Origin: Mytilus edulis
Lineage: Eukaryota
Direction of reading: 5' to 3'
DNA: 64,000 nucleotides
NCBI RefSeq assembly: GCF_963676685.1
Contig: NC_092351.1
Location: forward strand, 84,382,001-84,446,000
Numbering within the stretch: the first letter of the stretch is position 1; each line of letters starts with the position of its first letter. Shown piece after piece: positions 4,915-59,600 of the stretch. Position numbers and translations under genes: made by a program. The notes below the pieces were generated by a model that saw nothing but the letters and a program-made list of their open reading frames with translations, searched no databases and was not told where the DNA came from.

Positions 4915-5270
4915 ACGTTGACTGTTATGGAATAACCGTTTTACAGATGATATCTGATATGTTCCTTATGTCGAAACTACAATCTCCTTCTCCTTTCACG
5001 AATGTGACCTACCGAATTAGACAATTTACCGTTTTTTAATAACATAAGTAACACAACGGGTGTCACATGTGGAACAGGATTGGCTTACCCTTCCGGAGCT
5101 CCTCAGATAACCCCAAGTTAATGGTGGAGTTCGTGTTGCTTAGTCCTTAGTTTTCTATTTCTATGTTGTGTCTTGTGTACTATTATTTGTCTGTTGCTCT
5201 TTTTCGGTTTAAGCCATATGGCGTTGTCACTTTATTTAGTCTGTCACGTTGTAATCTTTCGACCCTCCTT
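4915..5270 (+). repeat. Dispersed repeat, probably the 3' tail of a Penelope-like retroelement
   Basis: Core acgggtg.cacatgtgg.acaggat..gcttacccttccggagc.cct recurs at about 32440-32545 (-), 37380-37470 (-) and 38600-38700 (+). The preceding VDCYGITVLQM resembles PLE ORF C-termini. Confidence 0.5.
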
Positions 5271-5821
5271 TGAATAGCATAGTTACGAGAGTTCATATAC
5301 TAAAGGGGATGCTATTGTTTTGTATTTTTTTCACGACTAAGAAAAATCATAAAATTGATCGATTTTCAACTCCAATTGCATCTTAATTGTTTTCGATTTA
5401 TCAGAGGTCAGAGAACATGCTAGATTACAGTCTCATATGTTAACATTCCTTTTGTTTGCAACGTTTTTTATTCCTTATATAATAACATTGGTCATATAAA
5501 TACTTGAATATTTCTGAAGTTGTTTTTTCTATGGTCGGATTGTTGTCTCTTTGACACATTCCTCTGCTGGTGGACTATTATTCCCCGAGGGTATCACCAG
5601 CCCAGTAGCCAGTACTTCGGTACTGGCATGAAAATAAGGATTTTTTGTGTTATTAAAATTTGCTGTTACAAAATATTAGAAATCATTATAAATTAAGGAA
5701 TGTATCTCCCTCATGCAAAGCTCTGATTCCTTTCACGGATTTGGCTATACTTTTTGGACCTTTTGCATTATAGCTCTTCATCTTTTATATAAGCTTTGGA
5801 TTTCAAAAATTTTGGCCACGA

Positions 5822-5865
5822 GCATCACTGAAGAAACATGTATTGTCAAAATGCGCATCTGGTGC
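5822..5865 (+). ncRNA. Type I hammerhead ribozyme, mutated (probably inactive) copy
   Basis: ctgaaga-Aaca..tgtc-Aaaa: G10.1>A and G12>A relative to the other units. Confidence 0.75.
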
Positions 5866-6172
5866 AAGAAAATTGGTGCCGTTCATTTTATTACTACCAC
5901 TGGGTAGATGCCTCTGCTGGTGGACTATTAAGTCTCCGAGGGTATCACCAGCCCAGTAGCCAGTACTTCGGTACTGGCATGAAAATAAGGATTTTTTGTG
6001 TTATTAAAATTTGCTGTTACAAAATATAAGAAATCATTATAAATTAAGGAATGTATTTCCCTCATGCAAAGCTCTGATTCCTTTCACGGATTTGGCTATA
6101 CTTTTTGGACCTTTTGCATTATAGCTCTTCATCTTTTATATAAGCTTTGGATTTCAAAAATTTTGGCCACGA

Positions 6173-6216
6173 GCATCACTGAAGAGACATGTATTGTCGA
6201 AATGCGCATCTGGTGC
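6173..6216 (+). ncRNA. Type I hammerhead ribozyme (predicted cleavage after C6210)
   Basis: Helix I GCAUCA/UGGUGC, core CUGAAGA, helix II GACA-uguau-UGUC, GAAA, palindromic helix III UGCGCA, AUC cleavage triplet. Confidence 0.9.
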
Positions 6217-6522
6217 AAGAAAATTGATACCGTTCATTTTATTACTACCACTGGGTAGATGCCTCTGCTGGTGGACTATTAGTCCCCGAGGGTATCACCA
6301 GCCCAGTAGCCAGTACTTCGGTACTCGCATGAAAATAAGGATTTTTTGTGTTATTAAAATTTGCTGTTACAAAATATTAGAAATCATTATAAATTAAGGA
6401 ATGTATCTCCCTCATGCAAAGCTCTGATTCCTTTCACGGATTTGGCTATACGTTTTGGACCTTTTGCATTATAGCTCTTCATCTTTTATATAAGCTTTGG
6501 ATTTCAAAAATGTTGGCCACGA

Positions 6523-6566
6523 GCATCACTGAAGAGACATGTATTGTCGAAATGCGCATCTGGTGC
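6523..6566 (+). ncRNA. Type I hammerhead ribozyme (predicted cleavage after C6560)
   Basis: Identical to 6173-6216. Confidence 0.9.
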
Positions 6567-6872
6567 AAGAAAATTGGTACCGTTCATTTTATTACTACCA
6601 CTGGGTAGATGCCTCTGCTGGTGGACTATTAGTCCCCGAGGGTATCACCAGCCCAGTAGCCAGTACTTCGGTACTGGCATGAAAATAAGGATTTTTTGTG
6701 TTATTAAAATTTGCTGTTACAAAATATTAGAAATCATTATAAATTAAAGAATGTATCTCCCTCATGCAAAGCTCTGATTCCTTTCACGGATTTGGCTTTA
6801 CGTTTTGGACCTTTTGCATTATAGCTCTTCATCTTTTATATAAGCTTTGGATTTCAAAAATTTTGGCCACGA

Positions 6873-6916
6873 GCATCACTGAAGAGACATGTATTGTCGA
6901 AATGCGCATCTGGTGC
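6873..6916 (+). ncRNA. Type I hammerhead ribozyme (predicted cleavage after C6910)
   Basis: Identical to 6173-6216. Confidence 0.9.
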
Positions 6917-7222
6917 AAGAAAATTGGTACCGTTCATTTTATTACTACCACTGGGTAGATGCCTCTGCTGGTGGACTATTAGTCCCCGAGGGTATCACCA
7001 GCCCAGTAGCCAGTACTCCGGTACTGGCATGAAAATAAGGATTTTTTGTGTTATTAAAATTTGCTGTTACAAAATATTAGAAATCATTATAAATTAAGGA
7101 ATGTATCTCCCTCATGCAAAGCTCTGATTTCTTTCACGGATTTGGCTATACTTTTTGGACCTTTTGCATTATAGCTCTTCATCTTTTATATAAGCTTTGG
7201 ATTTCAAAAATTTTGGCCACGA

Positions 7223-7266
7223 GCATCACTGAAGAGACATGTATTGTCGAAATGCGCATCTGGTGC
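7223..7266 (+). ncRNA. Type I hammerhead ribozyme (predicted cleavage after C7260)
   Basis: Identical to 6173-6216. Confidence 0.9.
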
Positions 7267-7783
7267 AAGAAAATTGGTACCGTTCATTTTATTCCATTCT
7301 CAATTTTATTGAAACACACTACCATTAACCGCATGATGTATTTTGTTACAATTTGTTTTATGGGGTCAATAAAGAATACAGTTTCGCGTTATCTTTACGT
7401 CAAATTATCAATTGTAGGTATAATCAACATGTACAATTGGTTTTATGAGGCCAATAAAGAAAATAGTTTCGCGTTAACATAGTTTTACAGATAATGATAA
7501 GAATACGGTAAAAAGCATTTTTTTCAAATAGTAAAATTAAGATCATGTTTAGTTATTGAAACGTGCCAAAGCTAAATGTAAGAACAATTTACTATTTTGA
7601 AAAATCCTTTCGCGCCAAATTTTTTATCGCCTACACATAAAAACAAGGAGATCCACTTTTCCTTATTTCTTTGCATTCTCTTGTTCTAATATCTATATAC
7701 TAACAGCTTATAACATTTATGAAATTTAGCCCTCAATGCTCTCCAACTTCGTACTGTATTTGTCGCTGTTAAGGATTTTTTTT

Positions 7784-7845
7784 GACGAAACGCGCGTCTG
7801 GCGTAAATATAAAATTGAATCCTGGTATCTTTGATGAGTTTATTT
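7784..7845 (+). repeat. Fragment of the hammerhead repeat family seen at 35491 (3' half only)
   Basis: gacGAAAcgcgcgTCtggcgta...aatcctggtatctttgat matches the 35491 copy. The CUGAUGA half is missing. Confidence 0.65.
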
Positions 7846-22504: not shown

Positions 22505-24264
22505 TGCAGTATTAAGACAGTAACAGCATTTTAAAGGTTAAAGATTGGAAACAAAAAATCTTTGTAATGTACTATAATTTCTCATCTAATCTTCAAAATT
22601 CTCAAACATTTTGGCAATAATGAGAAGTTTTTACTTGTCGAAATAAACATCTAGTACAGTACACATGGTACCATTGCTGTTTAAAATAGGGATATTAAAA
22701 AAGTAAAAGATCTAAACAGTATCAATTTACTTTTAAGAATCTTCTTGGTTAATAATGTAGGATAATCCTGTTTAAGTTCCTCGACTCTTTCCGTTCCCGG
22801 AGTAAACCCCTTACGTATGCGGTACATCCGTTTGGATGTGAATAGGACTGTTAAATTTGGGGCCTGATGTAAGGAGTGTTCCACAGCTTGCATTGCAGAA
22901 TCCGTTTTTTTTTTGGGTATTATTTGTTAATTTGCTCTCATCCTGAACATGCATGACATATGTGCCACTGGACGTCAAGTACACAATAAATCAATAAAAA
23001 TTATTGGAAGATTAGATGAGTGAAATATCCTATACACATCACCGTGATCGAAAAACAACATTCAATGGTCGGCAACATTATCTATACTTCTAAATTTAGC
23101 GGCATCTTTCACCTTTCATCATTATAAAGAACTAAGTTTGATAAGCTCGTTGACAACCAAAACATTCAGAAAAATAAACGTAAATGAAAATCTGTACATG
23201 TGTGTGTATAAATAATGATATGTTTTTTCGTGACAAGATTAAAAGACGATTATCTCTCCTTTTTAAAATCAAAAGATATTGAATTATCAACGACAGTCTA
23301 ACCAAGAACTCCTTACTTTAAGTAGCCTTTTCTCTTCTTATCAAAGTAGCATACTCTCGAAATATGCCAAACTCATTAATGGAACATGACGTTTCCCATA
23401 TCAAATGTGCATATAGTATTATGCACACAAAATAACCTGCACCTCTATCATGAGGGTCAATATTTGATTTCAAATAATGGATGTTATATAACAACCGGAA
23501 TATATATTATTTTCTTGTGATAAAGGCTTATGTCATGGTATAAACAGTTTATCCTCGTGGAATTTTGTCTGATGCTTGGTCCGTTTCTGTGTGTGTTACA
23601 CTGTAGTGTTGTGTCGTTGTTCTCCTCTTATATTTAATGCGCTTCCCTCAGTTATAGTTTGTTACCCCGATTTTGTTTTTTGTTCATGGATTTATGAGTT
23701 TGAACAGCGGTATACTACTGTTGCCTTTATTTATTGTTGATAATCAGCAAAAGTATAAACAGGGACTTGAGAAATTGTACGTTAAGTGATTCTGATATGA
23801 TTCCCCTAAATCGAGCAGAATAATATTTCAATAATGTAAATCTATAAGTTGATAGGCACGTCCACTGAAGTAAAATGACACAGAAATACATAACTATATA
23901 GATCATTGTACGGCCTTCAACAATGGGTGAAACTCATGCTGCATAGTTAGCTACAAAAGGCTCTTTGACAAATGTAAAACTATTATTCGCCCATTGTTTG
24001 AATATCAAATAAACTTCAGGTACTCGGAAAAAAGTTTGTGTGTTAGTACCAGCCGACAACACAGTCAATTAGTATGTGCTTGTAGTATGGCGTATCTCAG
24101 CTTAAGGCTTTTGAAAATATAATTGCAAATTAATTTGCTGCAAAGTCATGTTTATCTTTCTTCTTTCTTATCCAATGGGCTATCATACAACATCTTCTTT
24201 ATTTCATATATATTATTCATAATTCCATTTAAGCTGATACTGTGATCGTCATTGTAACATTAAC

Positions 24265-24406: not shown

Positions 24407-27400
24407 GGATAATTTCCTAGCCTTTTTCAATGCAAAGGGAACTATGGCCTATAATGATACAAATCAAGCTATGACAATTTCAACTTTTTCATTGTGAATC
24501 AAAAACTGTCATATGCATGAGGTTTTAGTCTTCTAATTTTGTCGTAAGCCATAATATGAACTTGATGACGCCAAAACATTTCTTGTAATTAGAAAAGACA
24601 TAAATTTGCAATTGAAAAATTTTGTTGTTGAATTGACTAATTGTAACTGCCAGGAAGATTTACGTCTACAATTATTTTTCTTATAAGTATTTTGAATAAA
24701 GTTACTTACAGTTCTCAAGAGGGTTTTTCGATATATATTTCCAAATAGATCTAGCACAGAAAGATTCCACTATGATTGCCTAAATGTTATGTTACACTCT
24801 GCACACACAGATTTAGTATTTTTCAAGTACACTTCTCAATATCTTCTTGTCCCGAATGAAGTGATGTCAACAGATAAGAATTATTTGGCCTCTATATTCG
24901 ACGCAATAAAAGTCACGATAATCAGATAAATATATATAGCACCTGCAGATCACATTGAGTGCATACATTATTGTTACTTTTGATTCGTTACCTTTACGAA
25001 ATCGCTGTATCCTTACAAAAATATTTGACTGTTTCAGGAAGAAAAAAAAAAAACACTTCCGTTATAGGAACAATATTTTGAAGTAATATATTCAATATTT
25101 CATTTCAGTATTCAATAATTATGGACATTGTTAACCACAGGCTATAAAACCCGTTATACTACTTGAAAATAAGTGTTTTATTAGTAAAATTCGCTTTTTA
25201 AGGATTCAGATTCATAATATAAAAAAATCAAGGGTGTTATAAAATCTTATATATAAATGGTTGGAACTATCTTTATACCTATTTTACCTTTTACAAAAGA
25301 GATGCGAACGATACCGAAGGGATATTCAAACTCATAAATTGGTAACAAACTGAAAATGTCATGGCTAAAAAAAAGCTCGAAAAGTCTAGTAACAGGACAC
25401 ACCATTAACTGCATAAGAGAGATGTAAAATATCAAAGAGACATTCAAACTCACAAGTCAAAAATAAACTGAGCAATTAGATAGACGCGTTAAAGATATTC
25501 ATCAAACTTTTTAGTTTTAAAAATAGCGGAACGTGAAATTATAAAAGGCTAGTCTGTTCGTTCTTCCTAAGAAGCTCCTACAAGAAGTCAGCCGCATGTG
25601 AATAAAAGAGCACTCGTCATGAAGGGGAGCACAGTTGTTTTTATGGGAATGCAGATTGTTTGTTGTACACATTGTTAATCAAACATCTTGATATCAGTTT
25701 CTTTTAAGATCCTCCCTATGGCAAGATACTTGTATCTAGGATGGCCATTGTTTATGTGAAACAGTAGTGGCATGACCAATACTATAATATACTCATATAA
25801 AATTGAGAATGGAAATGGGGAATTGTTCAAAGAGCAGACAACAGCCGAAGGCCACCACATCTATAATATGCTTACGATAAAAAATAAACTTTCAAACTAT
25901 TTAAAAATTAAGCCAAATAACATTTAAAAAATGATCTCAAATTCATTTCAGATGATCTAAAAAAAAAGCTAATGCATAAAATTCTTTGTGGTGCTGGAAA
26001 TATAAGGGTGGGGTTAAGAGGAGATGAGCACTTCAAGAGAAGATGAGCACCATCCTTCAAATCCTGGACTATTAAAATCAAATTTTTCCAGCAAATATCT
26101 GCACAAATAACAAAACCCGATCACTTGAAAGATATTTTACAAAGGTCTTTTCTTATTCAAACGTAAATCCAAAATGCTTTTCAACATCAATAGGACATTG
26201 AAGCCTATACCAATGTTTAAAATAATTACTTTCCTATAAATCGTTTTCATCGTTACTTAGAGTTTTTAGACCAAATATCAAATTCTTGCGCCTATCCACA
26301 GCAAAGGAATACATGCAGATGTGGACTCATACTATACCCGCTTATTCTTATAATAAATAATTAGATACAAAAAAGGCTTCATGATGGGTCCCTAAAAAAG
26401 GAGCAGAACTGTATCATGATGTGAAAGAATACTCATACTCATAAACATTAACCTTTATTCTACAAAAAAAAACATTAATTATTCAATAAATTATTCATCA
26501 AATCATACTTTACAGCTATAATAATATGTTGTTAAATAAATGTCAAAATATATTCAGAATTAATGCTTTTGTACAGGCAAAAAGATTTTATTTTCTTTGG
26601 TTTTTCTAGTGATGAAAAAGACCATCAGGAGAGTTTCGCTGGTTGATTTTTCTTTATAGACTTTGATAACTTAATCAAACAGTTTATCAATAGCAAAGAG
26701 TTATGTTTTGTCCAATAAGGGTAGAAAGTTCCAAAATCAAGAAATAAGGAAAAAATTCCAATATTTTTAAAAAGATAATATTGGACAAAAATGACAAAAT
26801 CCCGAAATTCTGCATCTTCTAAGAAGTGTTATGCTTGTTTAATTTGAAATGCTAACGTTTAATGAACAGTTTGTTAAAAGTGTTTACGGTAAATTTAGAA
26901 ATCACTGCTAAAATGCAACAGGGTTGTAATCATTATAATTTAATCTCATATTTTAGATTTTTTTTTATATGAATGAATTGGGATTGTTTTTCTCAGTAAT
27001 TTTTTTTAGTAAATTATTATCGCATTTTGGTCTAAATTGACAAATCGCAATAATCCTACACAAAATAATTTATGGAATTAACAGAATAAGAGTCATCTTT
27101 TTGTATTTAGTATACTGTAAAATAGCATTTCCAATAGGTAAATTTACAACATTCCCTTAAAAATTACAATATCTTCAAAGAAAATTTAATATATAAAATG
27201 AGGTATATACCTGAAATATATGCATTTCATTCTTACAACATATTTCATAACCAAGTATATTCTGTCCAACCTCGTATCTTACCTGCTATTGATGTGATCA
27301 GAATTTAAGTGTAGCAGTGACTGCTAAATACATTTACTAATATGATAAAAATAAGGAGATGTGGTATGATAATGGTTAATTAGACGAATATACACCACAG

Positions 27401-30970: not shown

Positions 30971-33598
30971 CTGCAAATATTACAAAAAAAATTCAATGTT
31001 TTCTAACATATAGATGATTAAAAGATTATAATGCAATAACAACGATCATCTATGGAAAAAGTTACGATTATCATAATTCTTAAATTCAATACACTCGTTT
31101 AGTTACTATGGAAGTAGTTTGCACCTGAGAGATTTTCATTTAGAACATAATTAGTTGAACTGTTTGCAATTAAATAAATATATGTCGCTCCTCTTCTTTA
31201 TGACATGTATAATACTAATAGTCAATTCATGATTTTAACTTAATGATGTAACTAAAAGTGGCATGTTGACTGGGGACAAACCATGTCGTGAATTGAAAAG
31301 TAAAATTTAAAATCAGATTACACTAAAATGTTAACAGATGGAAATATGAACAAGTTCTTGGTTATCAAACGACTTGTTATGCGAGTTTGAGTGGTAAGAC
31401 TAGTAATCGATCTATTAGGAGGTCATTTACAAAATACAAAAAGACTATATAAAAGGATACAAATATGTGTTCCTTATAACACGACAATGTACAAATAAAT
31501 TATTTCCATCTTTCAAAGTCGAATAAAACTCAAAATAATCTCTGTATGATTCTTATGAACATGATAGATGTTTGATTCACAATACACATATTTTTTTGGT
31601 ACTTTCTTTTCTCTTAGAGCTAATAATGCATATTTTCCTAACTCTTTTTGGTGCTAACCTGCATCTAATTTGCCTATTTACCTATTCGGCAGATCGTGTA
31701 TCCAATGTCATCTTAGATTGTAACAAAAAATAATCGGTTTGGACCGTCACCAATTTGGGAAAAAGAGTGCAAGTCATCTGTATGACTTTACATTGATACA
31801 GGAAAGATGATCAAATTCTGTTTATAACTACGTAAATTTTTACAAACATATTTTATTTTGTAGGTTTCATTTTTAACGTGATAGTTAGGGGATATAAGTC
31901 ATAAAATTAAGATTTATAAAGGCGTCTTTTTGTTGTTGCATTAAACAATTTGGATGACCCTTTGTGTTCTTTATTTTCACAATTTTAGATTTATCGTATA
32001 ATAACTTTATGAAAATCTTTTTTCATTTCCTTTCCGTTTCCATTAAATTAGAATCTGAACTACAGTAAAACATAAAAGTTTCTTAGTTTCATAATAAGAA
32101 TTGTATTTATTGTGTTGTATTATTTACTTTTGTATTATCCTTTAGAAATTAAGAATAACTGATTTTGCAATAGAAATATAATTTGAATCACATTTACAAT
32201 TCAATTGAATAAATGCACGTCATTCTGTTAGATAGTTTGTGTACTTTATTTATCTTCGTGATGTGATTTGGTGTTTGTTTAGTTTTGAACACTTTTATGT
32301 GTGAGAAATTGTAAAAGAGGGGCAAAATATACCATAGGGAAAGTCAAACTCATAGATCGAATATAAACTGACAACGCCATGGCTAAAAAATAAAAAGACA
32401 AACAATTGTACACAAGACACAACATAGAAAACTAAAGACTAAGTAACACGAACCAAACCAAAAACTGGGGATGATCGCAGGTACTCCTGAAGGGTAAACA
32501 GATCCTGCTCCACATGTGGCACCTGTCGTGTTGCTCATGTTATTACAAACCCGGAATACAGTAGACTAAGTAAAATGTCTATTGTGGTAAAATAAATTCC
32601 AAGTTGTATACTTTAAATTAATATTCAAGTAATTGGTATGAAATGCAAGTGTTATCAAGAGTGTTGAATTTAGTTCATTGAATACTAATTTTGTTTTGTA
32701 AATTTCATGAGGGGCTAGAGGTGGCCCTCAGTTCTAAATACTTTGAACTCAGGCCAACATACTAAAACTTTCACATAGGAAAAAAGTAATTACCCTTGAA
32801 ACAAAGACACATTTTTTGGCTTCTCACATTTTGAAGCAATTAAGATTCCTTAATCAAACATTGTTTGTATTGTAATGTTAGTTTTGATTCATTTCCCCAT
32901 GTTTTAACAATTAACATTGGCCGCGATATCTGATCTTAAATTATGTGTTGTATAAGGAAAAAGTCTTAACTCATCAGATGGATTCACATAGAAATACATA
33001 TAACAAGAATACAGATCAGAGATAACTTGCAGTTATTGACAGCAAGTTCAAAGCCAATAACAACTTAGAAAAAAAATCATGCACCCAAGATAAAGACTCA
33101 ATTATCAATCAGTTAACATCCAACATCCAATAGGTTAAGTGTAAAAACGTCACAAACTGTCAGAGAAAAACATGACTAATTGCAATGTCACGATACAGGT
33201 ATCGACATTTTGTGAATCAATGAAAGTGCATGCGTATAAAACAATAATATAAAGTTTGTTTTTAACTTACTGATAACAAAATACATATCAATAACAATAA
33301 AAACTATATTCAAAATCTAATTATAGAGTTAGATTGGTAACTTTTTAGAAAAAGTTTATCTAAAGGATCGATAGGTTTACAAGGATCATTTCTAAATTTA
33401 CGGGTATCGATGTGCTATCCCGTTTGAAACAACTTGTCTACAAACACAAAGCAACTTCAAAACCAAATATACAAATCCAGGATAGTTTATTAATGTTATA
33501 AAAATGTAGGATCGCTATGTCTCGCTTTTTCGACAAAAGTCGAAGGCTCGACGAAAAAGGAACAACATAAGCACTTAACTGCAACAGACTATATTTAC

Positions 33599-34745: not shown

Positions 34746-35490
34746 GCTTCCTCATTCTGAAAAATCATAACATTCTTCTAAGAGTAAGAAGTTAAATCTG
34801 ATAAGTGATTACCGAACTGTGTAAAAAAAACATTAATTAAAGTAGGAAATTTGAAGTAAATAAAAACTTTCTGATTAAGTAAAATGTACACTAATAGTGT
34901 ACAATGATAAAATGAGTTCCCTATTAAATACCTGGAACAGATAATCATTTAAAAAAAAATATTCACCGTCTGTATTTATTTCACGACTACACGGGGATAA
35001 GTACAATACATGTGTTTAATTATTTTATAGATTTAAATTAAATCGAATTTTGGCGTTATTGAACTTTTCTTTTGTACATAATGTTGTATTATAATTTTAT
35101 TTTTAAGGAAAATGAAACGAAACGATACTATAACAGAAATATGCTATGTTTAAAATATAAATTGGTGTCAACAGTTACAGTTTAGTAACAACAGTGAAGT
35201 AAGATTGCCATGCACTGACGTTGGTAATTCTATTCAATTTAGAGGTAAATTTTACGATTCATCATCATAAAGGGTTCTTGGATTGGGGACGCATATTACC
35301 GTGAAATATTAGCAATGTATTATATTTTAAGTATCTCCAATTTAAGGGTACACAGATTATTTCAAAAAATATATTTTTATATTAAACATTAGCAAAGGAC
35401 ATTATCAATTTGAAAATTGCGTAACCTTTGTCATGCACATTACGTTATTACTTGTAAAAGTTATCAAAGATACCAGGATTATGATTTAGT

Positions 35491-35534
35491 ACGCCAGACG
35501 CGCGTTTCGTCTACATAAGACTCATCAGTGACGC
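35491..35534 (-). ncRNA. Solitary type I hammerhead ribozyme of a different family (GUC site)
   Basis: Reverse complement gcgtca-CTGATGA-gtct(tatgt)agac-GAAA-cgcgcg-TC-tggcgt. All core nucleotides are intact and helix III is palindromic. Embedded in a repeat fragment at about 35460-35610. Confidence 0.85.
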
Positions 35535-37549
35535 TCAGATCAAAATAGTTATAAATCCAAACAAGTATAAAGTTGAAAAGCATTGAGGACCAAAAATTTC
35601 AAAATGTTGTGCCAAAAAAAGAAAAGATGAAAATATTTCCAAATCTAAATGCATTCTGTGCGATGATGATGATGGACGTGTTTAACGACCTTGACTGGAT
35701 TTACATCCCTTGCACGGAGAGCTTTAAATATTTTCTGCAGTTGGTGGTCAGTAATAGGTTGAAGGCGCCATTTTGGTGAGTGTCCATCTTGGTTTTGCCG
35801 AGTTGTTTTTTATTTGTTCTGAGCAATACTGTGTGGTTACAATGTATACAGAGTAACTATATAATGTGTCAAACTTTCGTCAAACCTTTGTTCAAGGCTA
35901 AGAAACATATTAATTTAAACGTTCTAGTACGTATGGAATATATTTTTTATCCACGTGCGGTGGCTCTGTAAATTAAACGGGTGTTTTTTAATGTTTAACA
36001 ACAAGTTACTGTATTTTGTATTTTGATAATGTTATTTAAATAATTAAAATAAAAAAAATACAGTCAATGATGCATCAGCACCAAACAAATGAACAGTTAA
36101 AAAGTAACAAAATCTAATTTGAGTTTGAGTTTAAAATCTTAGTCTAAAAAATAACGACATTCGATTTCACGACAATTTATTTAGATTAATTGGCGTCTAG
36201 TCTAAAATATTCACGTAATGTCTATACATTATACTCAGCCTCACTGGCACTCATACCACATAAAACAACAGCTCAAAGTTTTAATATCTAAAAATTGAAT
36301 TTCGGAGATATCTTCATACATTGAAAAATTGGTAATATTTCAAGACACTTTAATAATAAAAGAACAAAGCTCAAATAGTAATCTATGATAATAAAATTTT
36401 TAGTGAACGTTGCGGGCACAATTCTTTGGTGAGACTGTATAATATACAAAAATGCAGGTAGCGAGAGAGTTTGTAGGTTTGGTAAATCGACAAAAAAAAA
36501 ACGGAAATTACCATTGCATGTTATCTGTGAACACTTTGAAACACAATTAAATAGTTAAAAAAACGCTCATTTGTATTAACATGATTAAATAAAACAAATT
36601 CTTACTTTTTATATCCGACGAAGTTTGTCCTCACAGCCGTATTTACATGGTTGTCAAGAGTGTTATGTACTATATATCATTTTGTGTTTGCGCATTTATA
36701 TTCTTTTGTTCGGTTTTTAAAAAAAGGAATAAAGAACTCAGAAGTTTTTTAATGCATACTATCTTTACAGTATAAAAGGTTATCTTACATACGTAAGTTT
36801 CAATGAATGTTTATAAATGTTTCATCTCTCCAGTGCAGTTTAAATTTTGTCGACAAAACATATTCAGTCGCTCTGATTGAATTATATATTGAATTGAAAA
36901 ATTTTACTTACACTTTTGTATAGTTGTTTTGAATGTGTTATGATATAAAACTGCACCGTAATCATTCATAAGTATTCATAGGTAAAATTGATAATTTTTC
37001 ATAGCAAAGTTAAACAATGTTAGCTTCGATATTCCTTATCTGAATGGTGTGGATGGCTATGCATTGTGTACAGATATCCTTAGCTATATAAAAAAATAAA
37101 ACAAGTCAAGATACACTAAAATCAATATTTATCGTCAATTACAACTCATTTTTCTTGCATTTTCTTTTTTCATAGGTCAATGAGTAGTTTAATTTCAGTT
37201 GGATTTGTTATTACCATTTGTATCTTAATCAAACTTATAAAAAAGTGGTAAAAGATACCAGAGGGACAGTTAAACTCATAGATCGAAAATAAACTGACAA
37301 CGCCAAGGCTTAAAATAAAAAGACAAACAGACAAATAATAGTTCAAAAAACACAACACAGAAAACTAAAGACTGATCAACACTAACCGCACCAAAAATTG
37401 CTCATCTCAGGTGCTCCAGAAGGGTAAGCAGATCCTGCTCCACATGTTGCACCCGTCGTGTTGCTCATATAATGTATGATCATTCGATTTTTATACATTC
37501 ATGCCTTTCACAAATTCTTTTTTGAGAGTTGCTGATGAAAGTAAATATA

Positions 37550-38858
37550 GATAAGAGGCTCTCAATAGCCTGAATCGCTCACCATGAAATTGTTTGCTTA
37601 AATCTTTTATCAATGATTATTTTTGCTTTTTAAATATATATCAATGAGTGGCATAAAAATGCCATTTGAATGGTCTTCATATTTTTCATATTTCTCCAAA
37701 CGCAAATTACCCCTTTGTTCCATTTTAGTCATAAATATGATGTTTTTTGACGTACAAGGAAATAAAATGCAAAATTTATACTAGATCTTCTGAAGTCTTT
37801 TAGTCCAAGTTTGGCTGAAATCTATTCAGCAGTTTCAAAAGAGAAGATTTTTTTAAAGAAGGCAAACTAGATGAAAAAATTGTGGAAAATTTGTATTCAA
37901 AGGGCAATAACTCCTTAAGGGACCAACTGTCAATGTTAATCTTTTAAGTATAAAAATATGATCCCTGATTTGACTGATAATTTCAGGGCAGGTATACCTT
38001 GACCTAATAAATACGTTTTCTCTGATTTCCTCTAAATGCTTTATATTTTGAGTTATAAGTATTTTAAGCCATGGTAACCATGTTTTCTGAGGAAAAAGAA
38101 ATGCTTAACTAACTTTATTCTAGATTACCTAAAAATCATTCAGCTTAAGTGGCTTAATTTGATTCAATAGTTTCAGAGGAGAAGTATTTTAACGTTAATA
38201 AAATAATAAACAAATTGTGTGAATGTACGTAATCTTTATCTATAATAATATTCAAGATGATAAACAAACAGTACAAAATTTTCCTAAAATAACACATTTA
38301 GAGATAGCAAACCAACAATGGGTTGTCAGGTTCATTCGAAAATGTCAGAGCTGATATAATTTTACCTACTGAACACGTTTAAGTCCGATTTGCTCTAAAT
38401 GCTTTAGTTTTTATAGATAAGCTCAAAACTGTTTTTTATCCCTATGTTCTATATTTAGCCGTGGCAGCCATGTTTTTTTACGAAACAGAAATAAAACACA
38501 TGTACAAACTTTTTTCTAGATACTCTAAGGATCATTTAGCTTAGGTAGGCTTAGTTTAATTAGTTCTGTAGTATGAGAAGAGAAGATGTTTGATATAGTT
38601 TACACGAGTGCCACAAATGGAACAGGATCTGCTTAGCCCTTCAGAGCACCTGAGATCACCCCTAGGTTTTGTGGGGTATGTGTTGTTTCTTCTTTAGTTT
38701 TCTATGTTGTGTCATATGTACTTCTTCGATTTATGAGTTTGACCGTCCCTCTGATATCTTTCGTCCCTTTTTTTACCCCGGACGGACGATGACGATGGAC
38801 GACGACGGACACCAAATGATGGCAATAGCTCACATTTTCGTCGGAAAGTTGAGCTAAA
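37550..38858 (+). mobile_element. Old Helentron-like non-autonomous element with decayed internal repeats
   Basis: 5' agaggctctcaa..gcctgaatcgctcacc, decayed internal repeats, (GAC/GGAC)n microsatellite, and a 3' hairpin tagctca..tgagcta followed by an A-run. Confidence 0.5.
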
Positions 38859-38904
38859 AAACACATTGGTCGCATGAAATTTAGAACGTATTGTTTTCAT
38901 TTTT

Positions 38905-39884
38905 ACAGCACTGGGTTGATACCTCTGCTGGTGGTCTATCAGTCTCCAATGATATCACCAGTTATTGATACTGACATAATCTGATAATTTATAAAACAAA
39001 TCCTTTAAATTGTCCATTAATGAATTTCGAAATTATTAGAAAGTAAGGTTCATCTCTTTCACGCAAAATTGACCTTGATGGCTTTACCTTTTTTTGGTAC
39101 TTTCTGGTTATATATTTTTTCAACCTTTTTATATTTTATACAAATTTATACCGTGCTGTTTATATCTTTTACAGCACTAGGTCGATACCTCTACTGGTTG
39201 GCTATCAGTCCGAAAGTATCATCAACTCAGTAGTCAGTATTTTGAAACAGACATGAATAAAAAACAAACAGTATCAAAATTTCGTTACTTACCTTCGAAA
39301 TGATAAGAAATAAGGTTTCATCTACTTCACGTAAAGTTGACTTTTGATAAATTCGGTTTTATTGTGTCATTTGTGGTTAAAAAGTTCTTCAACTGTTAAG
39401 GTTCTTAAAATCCATTGCTTTGGAATATTCAGCTTTGAGCTTATCAGATGAAGGTATAACAAGAACAGCGCTTCGGATGCATTCAATTTATAACGTGTTG
39501 TTTACATTTCTTACAGATCTGGGTCGATACCGTTGACTTTCAGTCCCCAAAGGTATCATAACTCAGTAGTCAGTACTTTGGTACTGACATGATTTATAAC
39601 AAACCTTTTCAGAATTGTCCGTTTATTAATTTCGAAATTATTAGAAACAAGAATGTGTCCTCAGTACACGAATGCCCCACTCGCACTATCATTTTCTATG
39701 TTCAGTGGACCGTGAAATTGGGGTAAAATCTCTAATTTGGCATTAAAATTAGAAAGATCATATCATAGGGAACATGTGTACCAAGTTTGAAGTCGATTGG
39801 ACTTCAACTTCATCAAAAACTACCTCGACCAAAAACTTTAACCTGAAGCGGGACAGACGGACGAACGAACGAACGGACGAACGA

Positions 39885-40160: not shown

Positions 40161-41016
40161 TAGATAGTGCATTGCTTTTAGTATTCCCGTGACAAACATT
40201 TGCTTCATCTTGATATAGATATGAACTTTTGTTTTGAAAAACATAAATGAACAAGAATTACTTGAAAACAATGTAATGTATTGGGCTGATTGTAAACCCT
40301 TCTATGATTAAATTCATAAATTTTGCTCAGTTTAGAACAACCCTAGGCCGAATTAGTTTTATATTTAGAAGTGTTTTAAGTTACAGAATAAAAAAAATAC
40401 TTGTTACATTTAGAAAACATTTTAATTTAGTTTACCTAATGATGGAATTATTTAAGCAATAATGAAAAAACATTGTATACTAGTATTATGAATTAATTTC
40501 AGCAGATGATAATGATAATTTTGCATATACGCATTGGATAATTTTAAAATTTCTGGTGAAAAGTTGTGGTCAATTTAAGCTATAAATAATTGATAACAGC
40601 ATATAATGATTTTAAATTGTATGACCATGATTTCGTATCAAAGTTTTCATTAATAGTAATAAAATGATGCGTTTCTCGATATTGTTCTGTTTTCTTTTAT
40701 ACCACTACTTTGTAGTGAACAATAAAGCTCTTTAAGTTGATAAATAAAAAAAAAAAATCACAAAAATACTGAACTCAGAGGAAAATCCAATCGGAAAGTC
40801 CATAATCACATGGCAAAATCAAATAACAAAACACATCAAAAACGACTGCACAAGAACTGTCATATTTCTGACTTGGTACAGGCATTTTCAAATGTAGAAA
40901 ATGGTGGATTAAACCTGGTTTTAAAGCGCTAAATCGCTCACTTTGATGACAGTCTAGCACATAAAAATAATATAAGTCATTCAGATCTATACATTTCCAT
41001 ATGATCCGTTTAAATA

Positions 41017-51420: not shown

Positions 51421-52699
51421 ACTTCGTTGTCGCATTGTTTATAATATGTTGTAATTTTTTGTTATCTATGTACGTGCAATATTAAAATGCATTTTCTAAA
51501 GCTTTTTTCACAAATTTAATTACTAGGATGCCTGTTCTTGATCTTTAGTTTTACATTTCTTAGATGTTGTTATTCGATTGTATTATCTACATATAACATT
51601 TTAGTTAACCTGTAGGTGGTATGTTTGGTGACGGTTCTTGAGTTCTCTATGAGTTCTAAAATCAAAAAAAAAATATCCTAAATATACCAATATCATTTTA
51701 TAATTTAATTTGATGTAAAAAGTAAAATCACAAAAACACTGAAGAGGAAAATCAATTCGGAAAGTCCCTAATCACATGGCAAAATCAAATAACAAAACGC
51801 ATCAAAAACGACTGGACAAGAAGTGTCATATTCCTGACTTGGTACAGGCATTTTAAAATGTAGAAAATGGTGGATTAAACCTGGTTTTATAGCGCTAACC
51901 CTTTCAGTTTGATGACAGTCTCATCAAATTCCGTTATATTTACATTGATGCGTTAACTAAACAGACAAAATAAATAAAACAGTCAAAATATGGGTACATC
52001 AGCATCATCGTATAACAATTTTAAAAGGAACAATTTAACAGAACACAAAAACATCTATCTACAAACACATTCATTGATTTGTGTGTCTGACGTCAAAATT
52101 TTTTATACGTCACATAGATTTGTCGTTCAATGTGCATACAATCAATTTTATAATTAACATAGGCAATGTTAGCATATAGGGTTAAAAAATCAAAAGTGTG
52201 TAAGAATAAATTTCAGAAATAGTCCGAGATTGAAAATAGTCCAAAAGTTATATATAGAATTTATAAGAATCCACAAATAGTGCGTTATTCAGTGTGCACC
52301 ATTTTTTTTATGTTATTTCTTCATAGACAGGGAAAAGAGTACAGTCATTCCTTCAGTAAATTTTACAATTATGTTTATCATAAAGCATGCTATAGATATA
52401 TTCAGGAAGATGAGTGCTAATGAGACAACTCTCCATCCAAATAACAGTTATTGTATTTTAAGCATGGCCCTCGTTAAATTAGATTTTACTGCAAATTGAG
52501 TTTGCCTAGCGACGCGGAGCTTAAAATGCAATACATTTTTTTTTAATTCTAAAGTCATACATACATACATATAAATATTGTCATAAAAATGCAGAACATA
52601 AAAAGTATGCGAAACTATTCTTTTGTATAATAACAATTTGACGTCATATGCATATTTACGATGTAAAAAAAATCCACACCGTCCGTTCGCTTCTAAATG

Positions 52700-54290: not shown

Positions 54291-55894
54291 AAACCAGATG
54301 CTCCGCAGGGCGCAGCTTTATACGACCGCAGAGGTCGAACCCTGAACAGTTGGGGCAAGTATGGACACAACTTTAAAGATTGATACAGCTCTGAATTTGG
54401 ATTGTGATTAAATAGTTGACAAAACATAAGTTTCTGACACAGAATGAATGTGGTCTAAGAACTTGAACTTAAAAACTTTAAAAAATTTAAATTGGACATT
54501 TACCTATTATGGTCCAATATCAAAAATCTATATAAATGGTTAGATTCAGCGTATCATAGAACCCCAAGAATTCAATTTTTGATGAAATCAAATAATGTTT
54601 AATTTTAGACCCTTTAGACCTCAATGTGAACCAATTTGATAACCGGGCCCAAATATTTAAAAAAATCTAAATACATGGTTAGATTCAGCATATTGAGGAA
54701 CCAAATATTCAATTTTTGTTGAAATCAAAAAAAGTTTATTTTTTTACCCTTTGGACCTTAATGTAGACCAATTTGAAACCGGACAATACTGTGCAATTGA
54801 ATATTTCTTGCTATTGCGCAAAACTGTGCAATTGGAAATTTCTTGCTATTGCGCAATATTGTGCAGTTAGATATTTATTGCTATTGCGCAATACTGTGCA
54901 ATTGAAGATTTCTTGCTATTGCACAATACTGTGCAATTAAAGATTTCTTGCTATTGCGCAATACTGTGCAATCGAAAATTTCTTGCTATTGCACAATACT
55001 GTGCAATTGAAGATTTCTTGCTATTGCTGAATGCTGTGCAATTGAAAATTTCTTGCTATTGAACAATACTTAATATAATAATTTTGGACCCCGATTTGGA
55101 CCAACTTGAAAACTGGGCCAATAATAAAAAATCTAAGTACATGTTTAAATTCAGCAGATCAAAGAACCCCAAGAATTCAATTGTTGTTAAAATTAAGCTA
55201 AGTTTAATTTTGGACCCTTTGGACCTTAATGTAGACCAATTTGAAAACAGGACCAAAAATTAAGAATCTGAATAAACGGTTAGATTTGGCATATCAAAGC
55301 ACCACAATAAATCATTTTTTGATGGAATCAAACAAAGTTTAATTTTGGACCCTTTTGGCCCCTAAATCGTTGGGACCAAAACTCCCAAAATCAATCCAAA
55401 CCTTCCTTTTGTGGTCATAAACCTTGTGTTAAAATTTCATAGATTTCTTTTAACTTATACTAAAGTTATTGTGTAAAAACCAAGAATAATAGTGCTTATT
55501 TGGGACCTGTTCTTGACCCCTTATTCCTAAACTGTTGGGACTTAAACTCCAAAAATCAATCCCAAACTTCTGTTTGTGGTCATAAACCTTATGTTATAAT
55601 TTCATAGATTTCTGTTAACTTATGCTAAAGTTATTGTTCGAAAACCAAAAAAAATGCATATTTTGGCCCCTTTTTGGCTCCTAATTCCTAAACTGTTGGA
55701 ACCAAAACACCCAAAATCAATCACAACCTTCCTTCTATGGTCATAAACCTTGTGTCTAAATTTCATAGATTTCTGTTTACTTTTAATTAAGTTAGAGTGC
55801 GAAAACCAAATGTCTTCGGACGACGACGACGACGACGACGCCAACGTGATACCAATATACGACCAAAAACTTTTCAATGTTTGCGGTCGTATAA
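54291..55894 (+). mobile_element. Helentron/DINE-1-like element with subterminal inverted repeats and internal tandem repeats
   Basis: ttatacgaccgca (54318-54330) / tgcggtcgtataa (55882-55894), 3' hairpin atacgacc..ggtcgtat, (GAC)n tract, several internal repeat blocks. Confidence 0.75.
54785..55070. repeat. 35-bp minisatellite, about 8 copies
   Basis: Unit caatactgtgcaattgaagatttcttgctattgcg, head to tail with no spacers. Confidence 0.9.
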
Positions 55895-55919
55895 TAAAAT
55901 TGACGGTACTAATTTTCTT

Positions 55920-55963
55920 GCACCAGATGCGCATTTCGACAATACATGTCTCTTCAGTGATGC
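55920..55963 (-). ncRNA. Type I hammerhead ribozyme
   Basis: Reverse complement gcatcaCTGAAGAgacatgtattgtcGAAAtgcgcaTCtggtgc, core intact. Confidence 0.9.
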
Positions 55964-56269
55964 TCGTGGCCAAAATATTTGAAATCCAAAGCTTATATAA
56001 AAGATGAAGAGCTATAATCCAAAAGGTCCAAAAAGTATAGCCAAATCCGTGAAAGGAATCAGAGCTTTGCATGAGGGAGATTCATTCCTTAATTTATAAT
56101 AATTTCTAATATTTTCTAACAGGAAATTTTAATAACACAAAAAATCCGTATTTTCATGCCAGTACCGAAGTACTGGCTACTGGGCTGGTGATACCCTCGG
56201 GGACTAATAGTCCACCAGCAGAGGCATCGACCCAGTGGTAGTAATAAAATTGACGGTACTAATTTTCTT

Positions 56270-56313
56270 GCACCAGATGCGCATTTCGACAATACATGTC
56301 TCTTCAGTGATGC
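56270..56313 (-). ncRNA. Type I hammerhead ribozyme
   Basis: Identical to 55920-55963. Confidence 0.9.
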
Positions 56314-56619
56314 TCGTGGCCAAAATATTTGAAATCCAAAGCTTATATAAAAGATGAAGAGCTATAATCCAAAAGGTCCAAAAAGTATAGCCAAATCCGT
56401 GAAAGGAATCAGAGCTTTGCATGAGGGAGATTCATTCCTTAATTTATAATAATTTCTAATATTTTCTAACAGGAAATTTTAATAACACAAAAAATCCGTA
56501 TTTTCATGCCAGTACCGAAGTACTGGCTACTGGGCTGGTGATACCCTCGGGGACTAATAGTCCACCAGCAGAGGCATCGACCCAGTGGTAGTAATAAAAT
56601 TGACGGTACTAATTTTCTT

Positions 56620-56663
56620 GCACCAGATGCGCATTTCGACAATACATGTCTCTTCAGTGATGC
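56620..56663 (-). ncRNA. Type I hammerhead ribozyme
   Basis: Identical to 55920-55963. Confidence 0.9.
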
Positions 56664-59600
56664 TCGTGGCCAAAATATTTGAAATCCAAAGCTTATATAA
56701 AAGATGAAGAGCTATAATCCAAAAGGTCCAAAAAGTATAGCCAAATCCGTGAAAGGAATCAGAGCTTTGCATGAGGGAGATTCATTCCTTAATTTATAAT
56801 AATTTCTAATATTTTCTAACAGGAAATTTTAATAACACAAAAAATCCGTATTTTCATGCCAGTACCGAAGTACTGGCTACTGGGCTGGTGATACCCTCGG
56901 GGACTAATAGTCCACCAGCAGAGGTATAAAATCGTATCATTTCTTTTATTACTAGAATTAAAGATGATACGTCCCTTTAGTTAATAATTATGGAGTACGA
57001 CAAAAGAAACCAGAGTGACAGTCAAACTGGCTCATAGATCGAGAAGAAACTGACAACGTCATGGCTAAAGACAAACAGGCAAATAATAGTACAGAAGACA
57101 CACCATAGAAAACTAAAGACTAAACAAAACGAACCCCACCAAAAACTGTATAATTGAAACGAATTTTGTTTTTACTTTACTGGACTTAATATTGTTCAGT
57201 AGGTGATTGAAAACAGATTAATATGTTTAAGGTAAATGAATTTCATATTCAGGAGGAACGGTTACTTGATTGAATGAAGTGGCTTTTGTTTCGTTGCTCT
57301 TATATCAACAAGTTTGCACTTGAAGGTAGTTTCTCAATAAACTATGTTAAAGACGTCCGTACTTTCAACATAATTTATACTTAACGCAAGTATCGGACGT
57401 CTAAATACATAAACAAAAAGAAGATGTGGTATGATTATCAATGTGACAACTTCCCACAAGAGACCAATATAACACAGAAATTAACATATATAGGTTGCCG
57501 TTCGGCCACCAACAATAAGCAAAGCCAATACCGGATAGTCAGCTACAAAAGGCCCCGAAATGACAATGTCAAACAATTCATATGAGAAAACTAACATCTT
57601 AATTTATGTACAAAAATTAATCTTTAAAGAGTGTAGGTTGGAGTCAGAAAATTCTGACTGTAGTGCTACCTTAAAAGGATTTTTAACCTGTTCTTCAACG
57701 TAGGATATTTCTTGATTTCTAAAAGGTTGATGCAGCTGTTACATATGTTTTATTTTAAAAAATCAAGTATATTAAAGTTTGTTGTTAAGGAATCGTGTAT
57801 GAAACAGAAACTAATAGATATAAGTAACGAAAAAGTATTACCTGCCATTTTGGTTGTAAATTCTAACTTTTATTAACACAGACCTGGTGACGGGGATTTC
57901 CCTAAAATCTACTTTCGTTTGTACTAAATTTTCATATGCAATTGATTGTTAAAAGTAGATTACCTGGTAAATACATTATAATGATATAATGATATAATAG
58001 ACATGTATAACATGTACATCCTGTGACGGATATGATAATTGAAGTGATTTAAGATATCGATTATACACTAATCATTTGCACAACTAATGATAAAATTTCA
58101 ATAATAGATTTAATTTGCTTTTTGTAAGTGAATCGATTTAACGAAATTATTGTAATTATTTCCTTGGTGTTGTTTTTTTCTTTCTTTTTAATATTATTTG
58201 TTAACTGTTACTAAACTTGTACGTATATGTGATTATTTTCAAAAGGTTGGAAGCTACACTTTCGATAGTGTTATATTTAAAAGAAATCGTAATCACACAC
58301 AAACAAATCAGATGTCTACAAACACAATTAACAAGTCAAAAACAGGAACAACAATACGATGGTCTTCCGATTTCCTGAGTTAAGCAATTTGCAGTTTATT
58401 TTTCTTCTAAGTATGTGATTTTACACCACTGTTCTATTATAAGAGCATGGAGCGCTCACACACACGATTTATACTCCCACATTAAATATATGTATATACC
58501 TTCCCCAAATTAGAAGCATGCATTTCATTGGTTCTAGTTGGTTCATGCCTGTCATAAACGTTTTTGGTCCGGCCATACGTTTTCTCACCTGAAATGCTGA
58601 AATGCTGAATTTAATTGTTTGTTACCGGTGACTTGTATAGCCTACTGTACGATATGGGTTTTTCTCATTGTTAAAGGTCGTTAGTTGACCTTTGATTGTT
58701 TTTATCTTCATAATTTTTCTCTGATGATTTATTGTTTCTTTGGATATCATCTCTTTATTTCAATGTGGATAGTATTGGTATCAAACTTATCTTGTAAATA
58801 CTGGCTTAAGAAATCAGAACATTGTGTTCGGGTTGGTTATAATAGCGTGGGGTACGGGTTTGAAACGTCTGCTAAGTTGTTGCATATGCATTAATTCATA
58901 AAAAAACACTGCACGTGTAGCCCAATAAAAATGTAGAAGTGTAGATTTGAAGCGTTATTTAAGATACAAGAACAGTAAAATGGCAGCATTTTAGCAGTAC
59001 AGTTCTAAAGGTTAATACACCATGCGAGTAAAATACTATATATATAATTATATATATAAACTCGTCATAGATACCAGGACTAAATTTTGTATATAGTATG
59101 CTGGAATAATCGTTTATTCTTGCGTCAAGCAATAGCAGTAAAATGTCGATTAACGTGGACAGTTATTATTATTAGAGTCCAGAAATTCGTCGTGGTTTTG
59201 GTTACATTTGTCATGGTTTAGATCAAAATTAATACATCTTTGTAGCACCTTAATATTGATAGTTTGTATGAATGCGATTGTGAAAAATTCAAGTAACACG
59301 TTTGACTAATTGACGAAGGAGGGAAAAAGTCTTTTGACCAAATTCGGTGGGTGTAAGCGGCAAAATGGCCTGCCAAATCGTAAATTGATATATTTGTTTA
59401 CCCCACGTAATGCATTTCAGGGTCAATAGAAATATTTGGCGTTTGTATTTTCGTCCGTCCGTCTGTGCGTTCATCCGTTCGGTCTCACGTTTACAATTAA
59501 TATGTTTTTGTCGGATTTTTCATGAAACGTGTGTCATAAATTTTTATAACAGTTTTTTTTTTAAATTGCATTGTTAGCACTCTTAAATGTACAATTCTTG

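What the first reader, a model, noticed from the sequence alone, without database searches (positions are those of the whole stretch)
55892..56924. Second retrozyme array has the same ends as the first: fixed integration termini away from the ribozyme cut
Seen: both arrays begin exactly at CCTCTGCTGG and end at ..TTTTATT(A), so each is n x 350 minus the same 17-18 nt (actaccactgggt[a/c]gatg). The 3' end lies about 33 nt downstream of the cleavage site, not at it. The arrays have different diagnostic variants and unrelated flanks, so they are independent insertions. Short junction duplications overlap the element ends (attcc; gtataa). Inference: reverse transcription starts at a fixed U-rich site by target-primed microhomology and stops at a fixed structural position. 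An insert that runs across the cut site implies a circular or multimeric template. I do not know of this end specificity being described.
Basis: partly seen in the sequence, partly recalled or inferred. Interest (0 to 1): 0.72.

Follow-up and report, generated by a model that had tools for sequence, protein, structure and literature searches.

The report
Mussel retrozyme ends at Naiad signal
Copies of this ribozyme-bearing mussel repeat nearly all stop at one point, just before a predicted RNA hairpin that also precedes the protein-coding frame of Naiad jumping genes, which likely names the enzyme that spreads them; their other end is scattered, so the two arrays' matching start is likely chance.

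Summary
Both arrays are as described, but only one end is fixed. Across the genome, 93 of 103 sampled pieces end at unit 328-340 (63 at 332-333, 33 nt past the hammerhead cut). The 5' ends are scattered: 0 of 88 other insertions start where the window arrays do, and a genome-wide filter found 1 such junction where about 2 were expected. The shared start is likely chance. The 3' end does not follow the ribozyme: the offset from the cut is 33, 41 and 368 nt in three families. It lies about 6 nt before a 58-nt two-helix fold (7 of 13 pairs change on both sides). The same fold opens the 5' UTR of three intact Naiad Penelope-like retrotransposon families, whose own copies end at that spot. Naiad reverse transcriptase therefore likely binds this fold, starts just upstream of it and copies a circular or multimeric RNA until it falls off. 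The attcc 'duplication' of array A is probably a 4-nt target deletion. The repeat family is known; the helper and signal were not found in the papers searched. This scan reported the same link earlier on other DNA of this genome.

The parts
55892..56924 (-). Array B: 2 full 350-nt units plus 333 nt, all identical; young insertion
56620..56663 (-). Type I hammerhead core, unit 262-305; predicted cut between 56626 and 56625
   Evidence: read from the sequence; cleavage not tested
56270..56313 (-). Second hammerhead copy
55920..55963 (-). Third hammerhead copy, 33-34 nt upstream of the 3' end by its cut site
56529..56586 (-). Naiad-type two-helix fold (unit 339-350 plus 1-46), likely the RT-binding signal
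56179..56236 (-). Second complete copy of the fold
55889..55894 (+). GTATAA, 3'-junction copy of a probable 6-nt target duplication; overlaps the element end by 3 nt
   Evidence: empty allele not seen
56924..56929 (+). GTATAA, 5'-junction copy; overlaps the element start by 1 nt
5561..7293 (+). Array A: 4 full units plus 332 nt; older (1.9% between units), 6 variants shared by all its units and seen in no other sampled array
5545..5562 (+). Left part of the common host repeat into which array A inserted
7292..7310 (+). Right part of that host repeat; about 4 nt of target are missing between the parts

Best explanation
The array is a copy of a 350-nt hammerhead retrozyme that is likely spread by the reverse transcriptase and endonuclease of Naiad Penelope-like retrotransposons, whose 5'-UTR fold it carries just beyond its fixed 3' end. 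Shown: fixed 3' end, scattered 5' ends, the shared covarying fold, the same end register in Naiad copies, intact Naiad frames, and transcription. Inferred: the Naiad protein binds the fold; a nicked AT-rich target pairs by 1-6 nt with the U-rich tract just 5' of it; cDNA starts there and runs round the template until the enzyme falls off at random, giving n units plus a partial unit. A cleaved linear monomer has only 33 nt upstream of the start, so longer inserts need a circle (favoured) or an uncleaved multimer. The two window arrays likely share a 5' end by chance.
For: 3' ends: 93 of 103 pieces at unit 328-340, 61 of 66 in the position-ordered sample. RNA reads and DNA contigs of other samples show mixed flanks piling up at 56592/56593. 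5' ends range over 10-348 in 88 insertions, and for the 51 longer than one unit a uniform spread is not rejected, KS p=0.13. Naiad-C matches unit 331-49 at 87% over 69 nt, E 3e-19, and this was the only stretch of the unit that matched it. Naiad ends fall at the same spot: 19 of 32 (A), 24 of 25 (B) and 37 of 50 (C). Fold z-scores are -2.6 to -3.5; 7 of 13 pairs change on both sides, 0 of 500 shuffles reach this, and slid controls give at most 2. The 355-nt family ends the same 6 nt before the fold but 41 nt from its cut (8 of 11 ends). Duplications of 5 nt or more occur in 25 of 88 insertions against 5.9 in permutations. Only 2 filtered junctions lie at the cut site genome-wide. 27 of 46 multi-unit arrays carry a variant shared by all their units and absent from the other sampled arrays.
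Against: No binding, priming, cleavage or circularisation was tested. The covariation rests on 7 related sequences, and the structure was taken from one of them. Naiad-C, the closest in sequence, ends 4-5 nt before the first helix, whereas the retrozyme, Naiad-A and Naiad-B end 6 nt before it, so the actual helper family is not fixed. 63 of 88 insertions show no duplication of 5 nt or more. 5' ends in the 80-nt interval are slightly skewed (KS p=0.028). A 546-nt family with nearly the same hammerhead has a fixed end without this fold, so the link does not cover all retrozymes here. No pile of RNA read ends was seen at the cut.
Confidence: 0.8

Rival explanations
1. One reading: both ends are fixed, with reverse transcription stopping at a structural site at unit position 1.
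For: Both window arrays start within 1 nt of each other; about 0.9% for one pair under a uniform spread.
Against: 0 of 88 other insertions, 2 of 56 where 2.1 were expected, 1 true junction genome-wide. With roughly 1,850 arrays (estimate), about 80 windows of 64 kb hold two, so about 0.7 such coincidences are expected per genome (my arithmetic).
Confidence: 0.02
2. The shared segment is a relic of origin from a Naiad end, or a DNA-level signal (promoter or endonuclease site), and is not an RNA signal for the start of reverse transcription. Naiad machinery may still be involved.
For: PMC8557442 ascribes PLE end extensions to endonuclease-mediated resolution. The segment lies where an internal promoter could lie, just before the Naiad ATG.
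Against: Paired changes keep both helices across Naiads whose proteins are only 56-64% identical, which a double-stranded DNA signal would not need. In vitro, a PLE starts internally at a stem-loop and needs RNA 3' of the start (PMC11167929).
Confidence: 0.1
3. The template is an uncleaved multimeric transcript of an existing array and not a circle; everything else as in the best explanation (not exclusive of it).
For: RNA reads run across the cut with no pile of ends, and many are read-through with flanks. Unprocessed RNA was the main substrate for PAc in vitro (PMC11167929).
Against: Young arrays with identical units carry 1-4 variants of their own (L126, L111, L073, L122, array B), as expected from repeated copying of one monomer. 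Only 53 of about 1,850 arrays were compared, so a source array could have been missed. Circles are abundant in mussel tissue (PMC7229834).
Confidence: 0.3
4. Rolling-circle DNA transposition (Helitron- or IS91-like, recalled) gives one fixed end, a variable other end and multimers.
For: The geometry fits in outline.
Against: The fixed end and the fold are shared with elements that encode GIY-YIG plus RT, in the sense orientation. Target duplications are above chance.
Confidence: 0.03

Closest known systems
Mytilus galloprovincialis non-LTR retrozymes (Cervera and de la Pena 2020, PMC7229834; passages and Discussion read, supplement unreadable)
   Same: Tandem ~350-nt repeats, type I hammerhead, thousands of copies (2,728 exact 24-mer matches), two related families, transcribed.
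   Different: In what I read, that paper names PLEs only as candidates and maps no ends. Sequence identity with its clones could not be checked.
Poseidon PLE of Anolis (PAc; Frangieh et al. 2024, PMC11167929; parts 1-2 of 4 read, including the whole main text)
   Same: Fixed internal start of reverse transcription downstream of a hammerhead cut, AT-rich (ATT) targets, RNA 3' of the start required, cleavage not needed.
   Different: Autonomous, C-terminal endonuclease, two start sites within the ORF. Here a non-coding repeat with one narrow start zone and an N-terminal-endonuclease helper.
Naiad Penelope-like elements (Craig et al. 2021, PMC8557442; passages and section 6 read)
   Same: 5' truncation, partial tandems and a fixed 3' end. 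The helpers found here have GIY-YIG first, CxC, DKA, and no hammerhead core.
   Different: No shared 5'-UTR fold and no retrozyme partner appear in the passages read.
Retrozymes as non-autonomous PLE derivatives (Li, Clavereau, Pollet 2026, bioRxiv 10.64898/2026.07.22.740005; parts 1-3 of 5 read; supplements closed)
   Same: Proposes PLE origin and mobilisation from co-occurrence and pLTR homology in Xenopus.
   Different: No molluscs, no breakpoint map, no structure, no Naiad partner. Here the shared part is a 58-nt fold and the helper lacks the hammerhead.

Membership tests
Non-LTR retrozyme | Type I hammerhead core in each unit | tested here: met
   CUGAAGA, stem II, GAAA, short palindromic stem III, AUC, 6-bp stem I. 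Rfam gives no hammerhead hit, and the isolated motif does not fold as a monomer (z 0.77).
Non-LTR retrozyme | Tandem 150-450-nt AT-rich units, dispersed, without LTRs | tested here: met
Non-LTR retrozyme | Transcribed | tested here: met
   787-2,609 reads laid in 4 of 4 RNA runs from 2 studies; both strands, skewed in 3 runs. Family level, not this locus.
Non-LTR retrozyme | Self-cleavage and circular RNA | not testable with these tools
   Short reads cannot tell circles from tandem transcripts.
Non-autonomous Naiad-dependent element | Shares the terminal signal and end register with an autonomous element | tested here: met
Non-autonomous Naiad-dependent element | 5' truncation and AT-rich targets with short, variable duplications or deletions | tested here: met
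Non-autonomous Naiad-dependent element | Mobilised in trans by Naiad protein | not testable with these tools
   Needs an in vitro or cell assay.
Naiad PLE (the candidate helpers) | N-terminal GIY-YIG, upstream Zn-finger-like motif, CxC, DKA, C-terminal RT | tested here: met
   Pfam GIY-YIG at 179-269 of Naiad-A, E 2.8e-7; RVT_1 weak, E 0.021; motifs found in all three proteins. No tree was built.
Naiad PLE (the candidate helpers) | No canonical hammerhead | tested here: met
   No CUGANGA..GAAA core inside the elements on the coding strand.
Element with two fixed termini | Fixed 5' end | tested here: not met

The most novel reading that the evidence does not exclude
A 58-nt structured RNA is the Naiad reverse-transcriptase entry signal. 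It works only from downstream of the start site, so templates must be circles or tandems. Mussel retrozymes are that signal plus a borrowed hammerhead, that is, circular-RNA parasites of a hammerhead-free PLE clade, and the signal could direct rolling-circle insertion of any small RNA circle.
Probability: 0.55. Interest if true: 0.78.

Novelty: new variant of a known kind. Interest (0 to 1): 0.62.

Why it matters
A 2020 review (PMC7761336, passages read) states that animal retrozymes show no conserved motif pointing to their helper. Here there is one, placed at the insertion end and shared with young, intact Naiad copies. That gives a named enzyme, a 58-nt RNA signal with ready-made compensatory mutations, and a predicted start nucleotide, so the mobilisation step can be tested directly. 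It also suggests why Naiads occur in partial tandems: the signal lies beyond the end of a single copy.

Tried and rejected
Fixed 5' end: rejected. An apparent cluster of 5' ends at unit 37-44 in the first sample did not hold in the targeted sample. Excess of 5' ends at the cut site: none (2 matches; one more case, L005, that the filter excludes). End set by the ribozyme: rejected, offsets differ between families. One array copied from the other as DNA: rejected (11 fixed differences, unrelated flanks). Empty allele of array B: not visible in the shown part of the contig tables. Rfam: no family for the unit or the fold; no twister hit in three Naiad loci at E up to 1, which does not test the variant proposed in earlier notes. 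Helper of the 546-nt family: not found among the loci held. The other endonuclease-plus-RT loci did not share the fold at their ORFs. Literature searches found no paper that maps retrozyme ends or links them to Naiads; subscription journals and Repbase are not covered, and the supplement of PMC7229834 and those of the preprint could not be read.

Full report
What is there. Array B (55892-56924, minus strand) is two identical 350-nt units plus 333 nt; array A (5561-7293, plus strand) is four units plus 332 nt. Numbering the unit from CCTCTG, a type I hammerhead spans 262-305 and would cut after 299, so both arrays end 33-34 nt past the cut. Eleven fixed differences and unrelated flanks make them separate insertions. 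The genome has 1.37 Gb and 2,728 exact copies of a 24-mer across the cut. This fits the description of the mussel non-LTR retrozyme in PMC7229834; the organism is my inference, and that paper's sequences were unreadable.

3' end. I took arrays from a similarity search and all arrays under the first 100 pattern matches on contig C1. Of 109 aligned pieces (after a filter of at least 89% identity and 45 nt), 103 remained after removing duplicates. 93 end at unit 328-340, 63 of them at 332-333; in the position-ordered sample 61 of 66. Of the 10 others, 7 are upstream parts of interrupted or internally deleted arrays, one is an over-extended alignment, one a side fragment and one an array cut at 111. 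All loci were chosen for similarity to the unit or for holding unit 289-312, so pieces lacking the ribozyme are under-sampled. Reads from other samples agree: loose ends with mixed flanks pile up at 56592/56593, that is unit 333/332.

5' end. For 88 simple insertions (six 3' parts of interrupted arrays and the window's own arrays left out), starts run from 10 to 348 with none at 350, 1 or 2. For the 51 longer than one unit a uniform spread is not rejected (p=0.13). A pattern that selects junctions in the 80 nt around position 1 gave 300 matches. I examined the first 70; 56 were distinct junctions, 2 of them at 350/1/2 where 2.1 were expected, with a slight skew across the interval (p=0.028). 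A filter for starts exactly at position 1 gave 4 matches, 1 a true junction and 3 internal deletions; about 2 are expected from the pass rates (and my arithmetic). The shared start of the two arrays is about a 1% event per pair and about 0.7 events per genome.

Junctions. Duplications of at least 5 nt occur in 25 of 88 insertions against 5.9 (maximum 13) in permutations, and of at least 7 nt in 10 against 1.2. Most begin within the terminal TTATT, so the target overlaps the element end by 1-6 nt. Most insertions show no such duplication. GTATAA at array B fits a 6-nt duplication, but no empty allele was seen. ATTCC at array A probably is not one: the host is a repeat with at least 11,053 matches, and 10 of 10 other copies in my loci have four more bases between what are here the two flanks, pointing to a 4-nt deletion with CC and TT overlaps.

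What places the end. A GIY-YIG search led to a 1,053-codon frame whose start resembles the stretch just beyond the retrozyme end. It has the Naiad marks listed in PMC8557442: endonuclease first, CxC, DKA, no hammerhead. A protein search found two more families with many intact frames, of 1,007 and 1,000 codons; the three proteins are 56-64% identical. All three carry the segment just before the ATG, and Naiad-C matches the retrozyme at 87% over 69 nt and nowhere else. Retrozyme and Naiad versions fold with the same two outer helices, z -2.6 to -3.5. On 7 sequences 97.8% of cells pair and 7 of 13 pairs change on both sides; none of 500 shuffles reaches this and slid controls give at most 2. The set is small and related, and the structure came from one member. 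Naiad copies end at the same place: 19 of 32, 24 of 25 and 37 of 50 non-read-through alignment ends. The gap to the first helix is mostly 6 nt in the 350-nt family, the 355-nt family and Naiad-A, 6 or 4 nt in Naiad-B, and 4-5 nt in Naiad-C. The distance from the cut is 33 nt in the 350-nt family, 41 nt in the 355-nt family (8 of 11 ends) and 368 nt in a 546-nt family that has nearly the same hammerhead, lacks the fold and ends at its own fixed site (27 of 38 ends, mostly next to TA repeats). The ribozyme therefore does not set the end.

Mechanism. Inferred: Naiad protein binds the fold, the nicked target pairs with the U-rich tract 5' of it, and cDNA runs upstream until the enzyme falls off. 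PMC11167929 shows this logic in vitro for a Poseidon element: internal start, RNA needed 3' of the start, ATT targets, cleavage dispensable. A cleaved monomer offers only 33 nt upstream of the start, and only 2 filtered junctions lie at the cut, both 33-nt inserts. Longer inserts need a circle or an uncleaved multimer. 27 of 46 multi-unit arrays have a variant common to all their units and absent from the other sampled arrays, including young arrays with identical units. This favours one monomer copied repeatedly, but only 53 arrays were compared. The family is transcribed in 4 of 4 RNA runs, with no pile of ends at the cut.

Relation to print and to earlier notes. PMC7229834 and PMC8557442 name PLEs as candidate helpers; PMC7761336 says no motif points to one; the 2026 preprint 10.64898/2026.07.22.740005 shows pLTR homology in Xenopus without ends, structure or Naiads. 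Searches found nothing closer. Six earlier notes of this scan report the same Naiad link on other pieces of this genome; I had reached it before looking (notes), and they are not independent evidence.

Verdict. The repeat is a known retrozyme; the fixed end, its independence from the ribozyme and the shared Naiad fold are well supported by sequence, and the enzymatic steps are untested. Interest 0.62.

Noticed in passing
G000:C8:84459500-84465255 (L308), about 13.5 kb beyond the window end: An intact Naiad-B copy (1,007-codon frame, pLTR of at least 1.2 kb).
   Followed up: partly
window 40747-40955, 51715-52281 (Naiad-A-like); 23586-23734 (B-like); 4917-5237, 25295-25371, 32312-32562, 37237-37468, 38604-38773, 56999-57147 (C-like): Several 5'-truncated Naiad 3' ends lie in the window; one is 70 nt from array B.
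   Followed up: partly
window 35453-35616 (-) and 7784-7835 (+): Fragments of the 355-nt sister retrozyme family; the first ends at that family's fixed site.
   Followed up: partly
window 38900-39240 (+): Decayed copy of a further family of about 270 nt period with two copies of the same fold.
   Followed up: partly
L174, L213-L230 and others: A 546-nt tandem family with almost the same hammerhead, its own fixed 3' end and TA-repeat targets; helper unknown.
   Followed up: partly
L110:3240-3895 and L102: Naiad-B and Naiad-C 3' ends inserted into 350-nt arrays, so the Naiads were active after these arrays formed.
   Followed up: partly
window 5530-5562 and 7292-7310: The host repeat of array A (at least 11,053 matches) itself ends in TTTTATT and may be the 3' end of another Naiad family.
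   Followed up: no
L171-L190: Several other young PLE families with C-terminal GIY-YIG (755-959 codons); hammerhead-like motifs occur in some of these loci (L167, L181, L187, L189).
   Followed up: no
window 55361-55894: Array B inserted at the end of a repeat with a 161-nt tandem, a short GAC run and a terminal hairpin (Helentron-like; label recalled).
   Followed up: no
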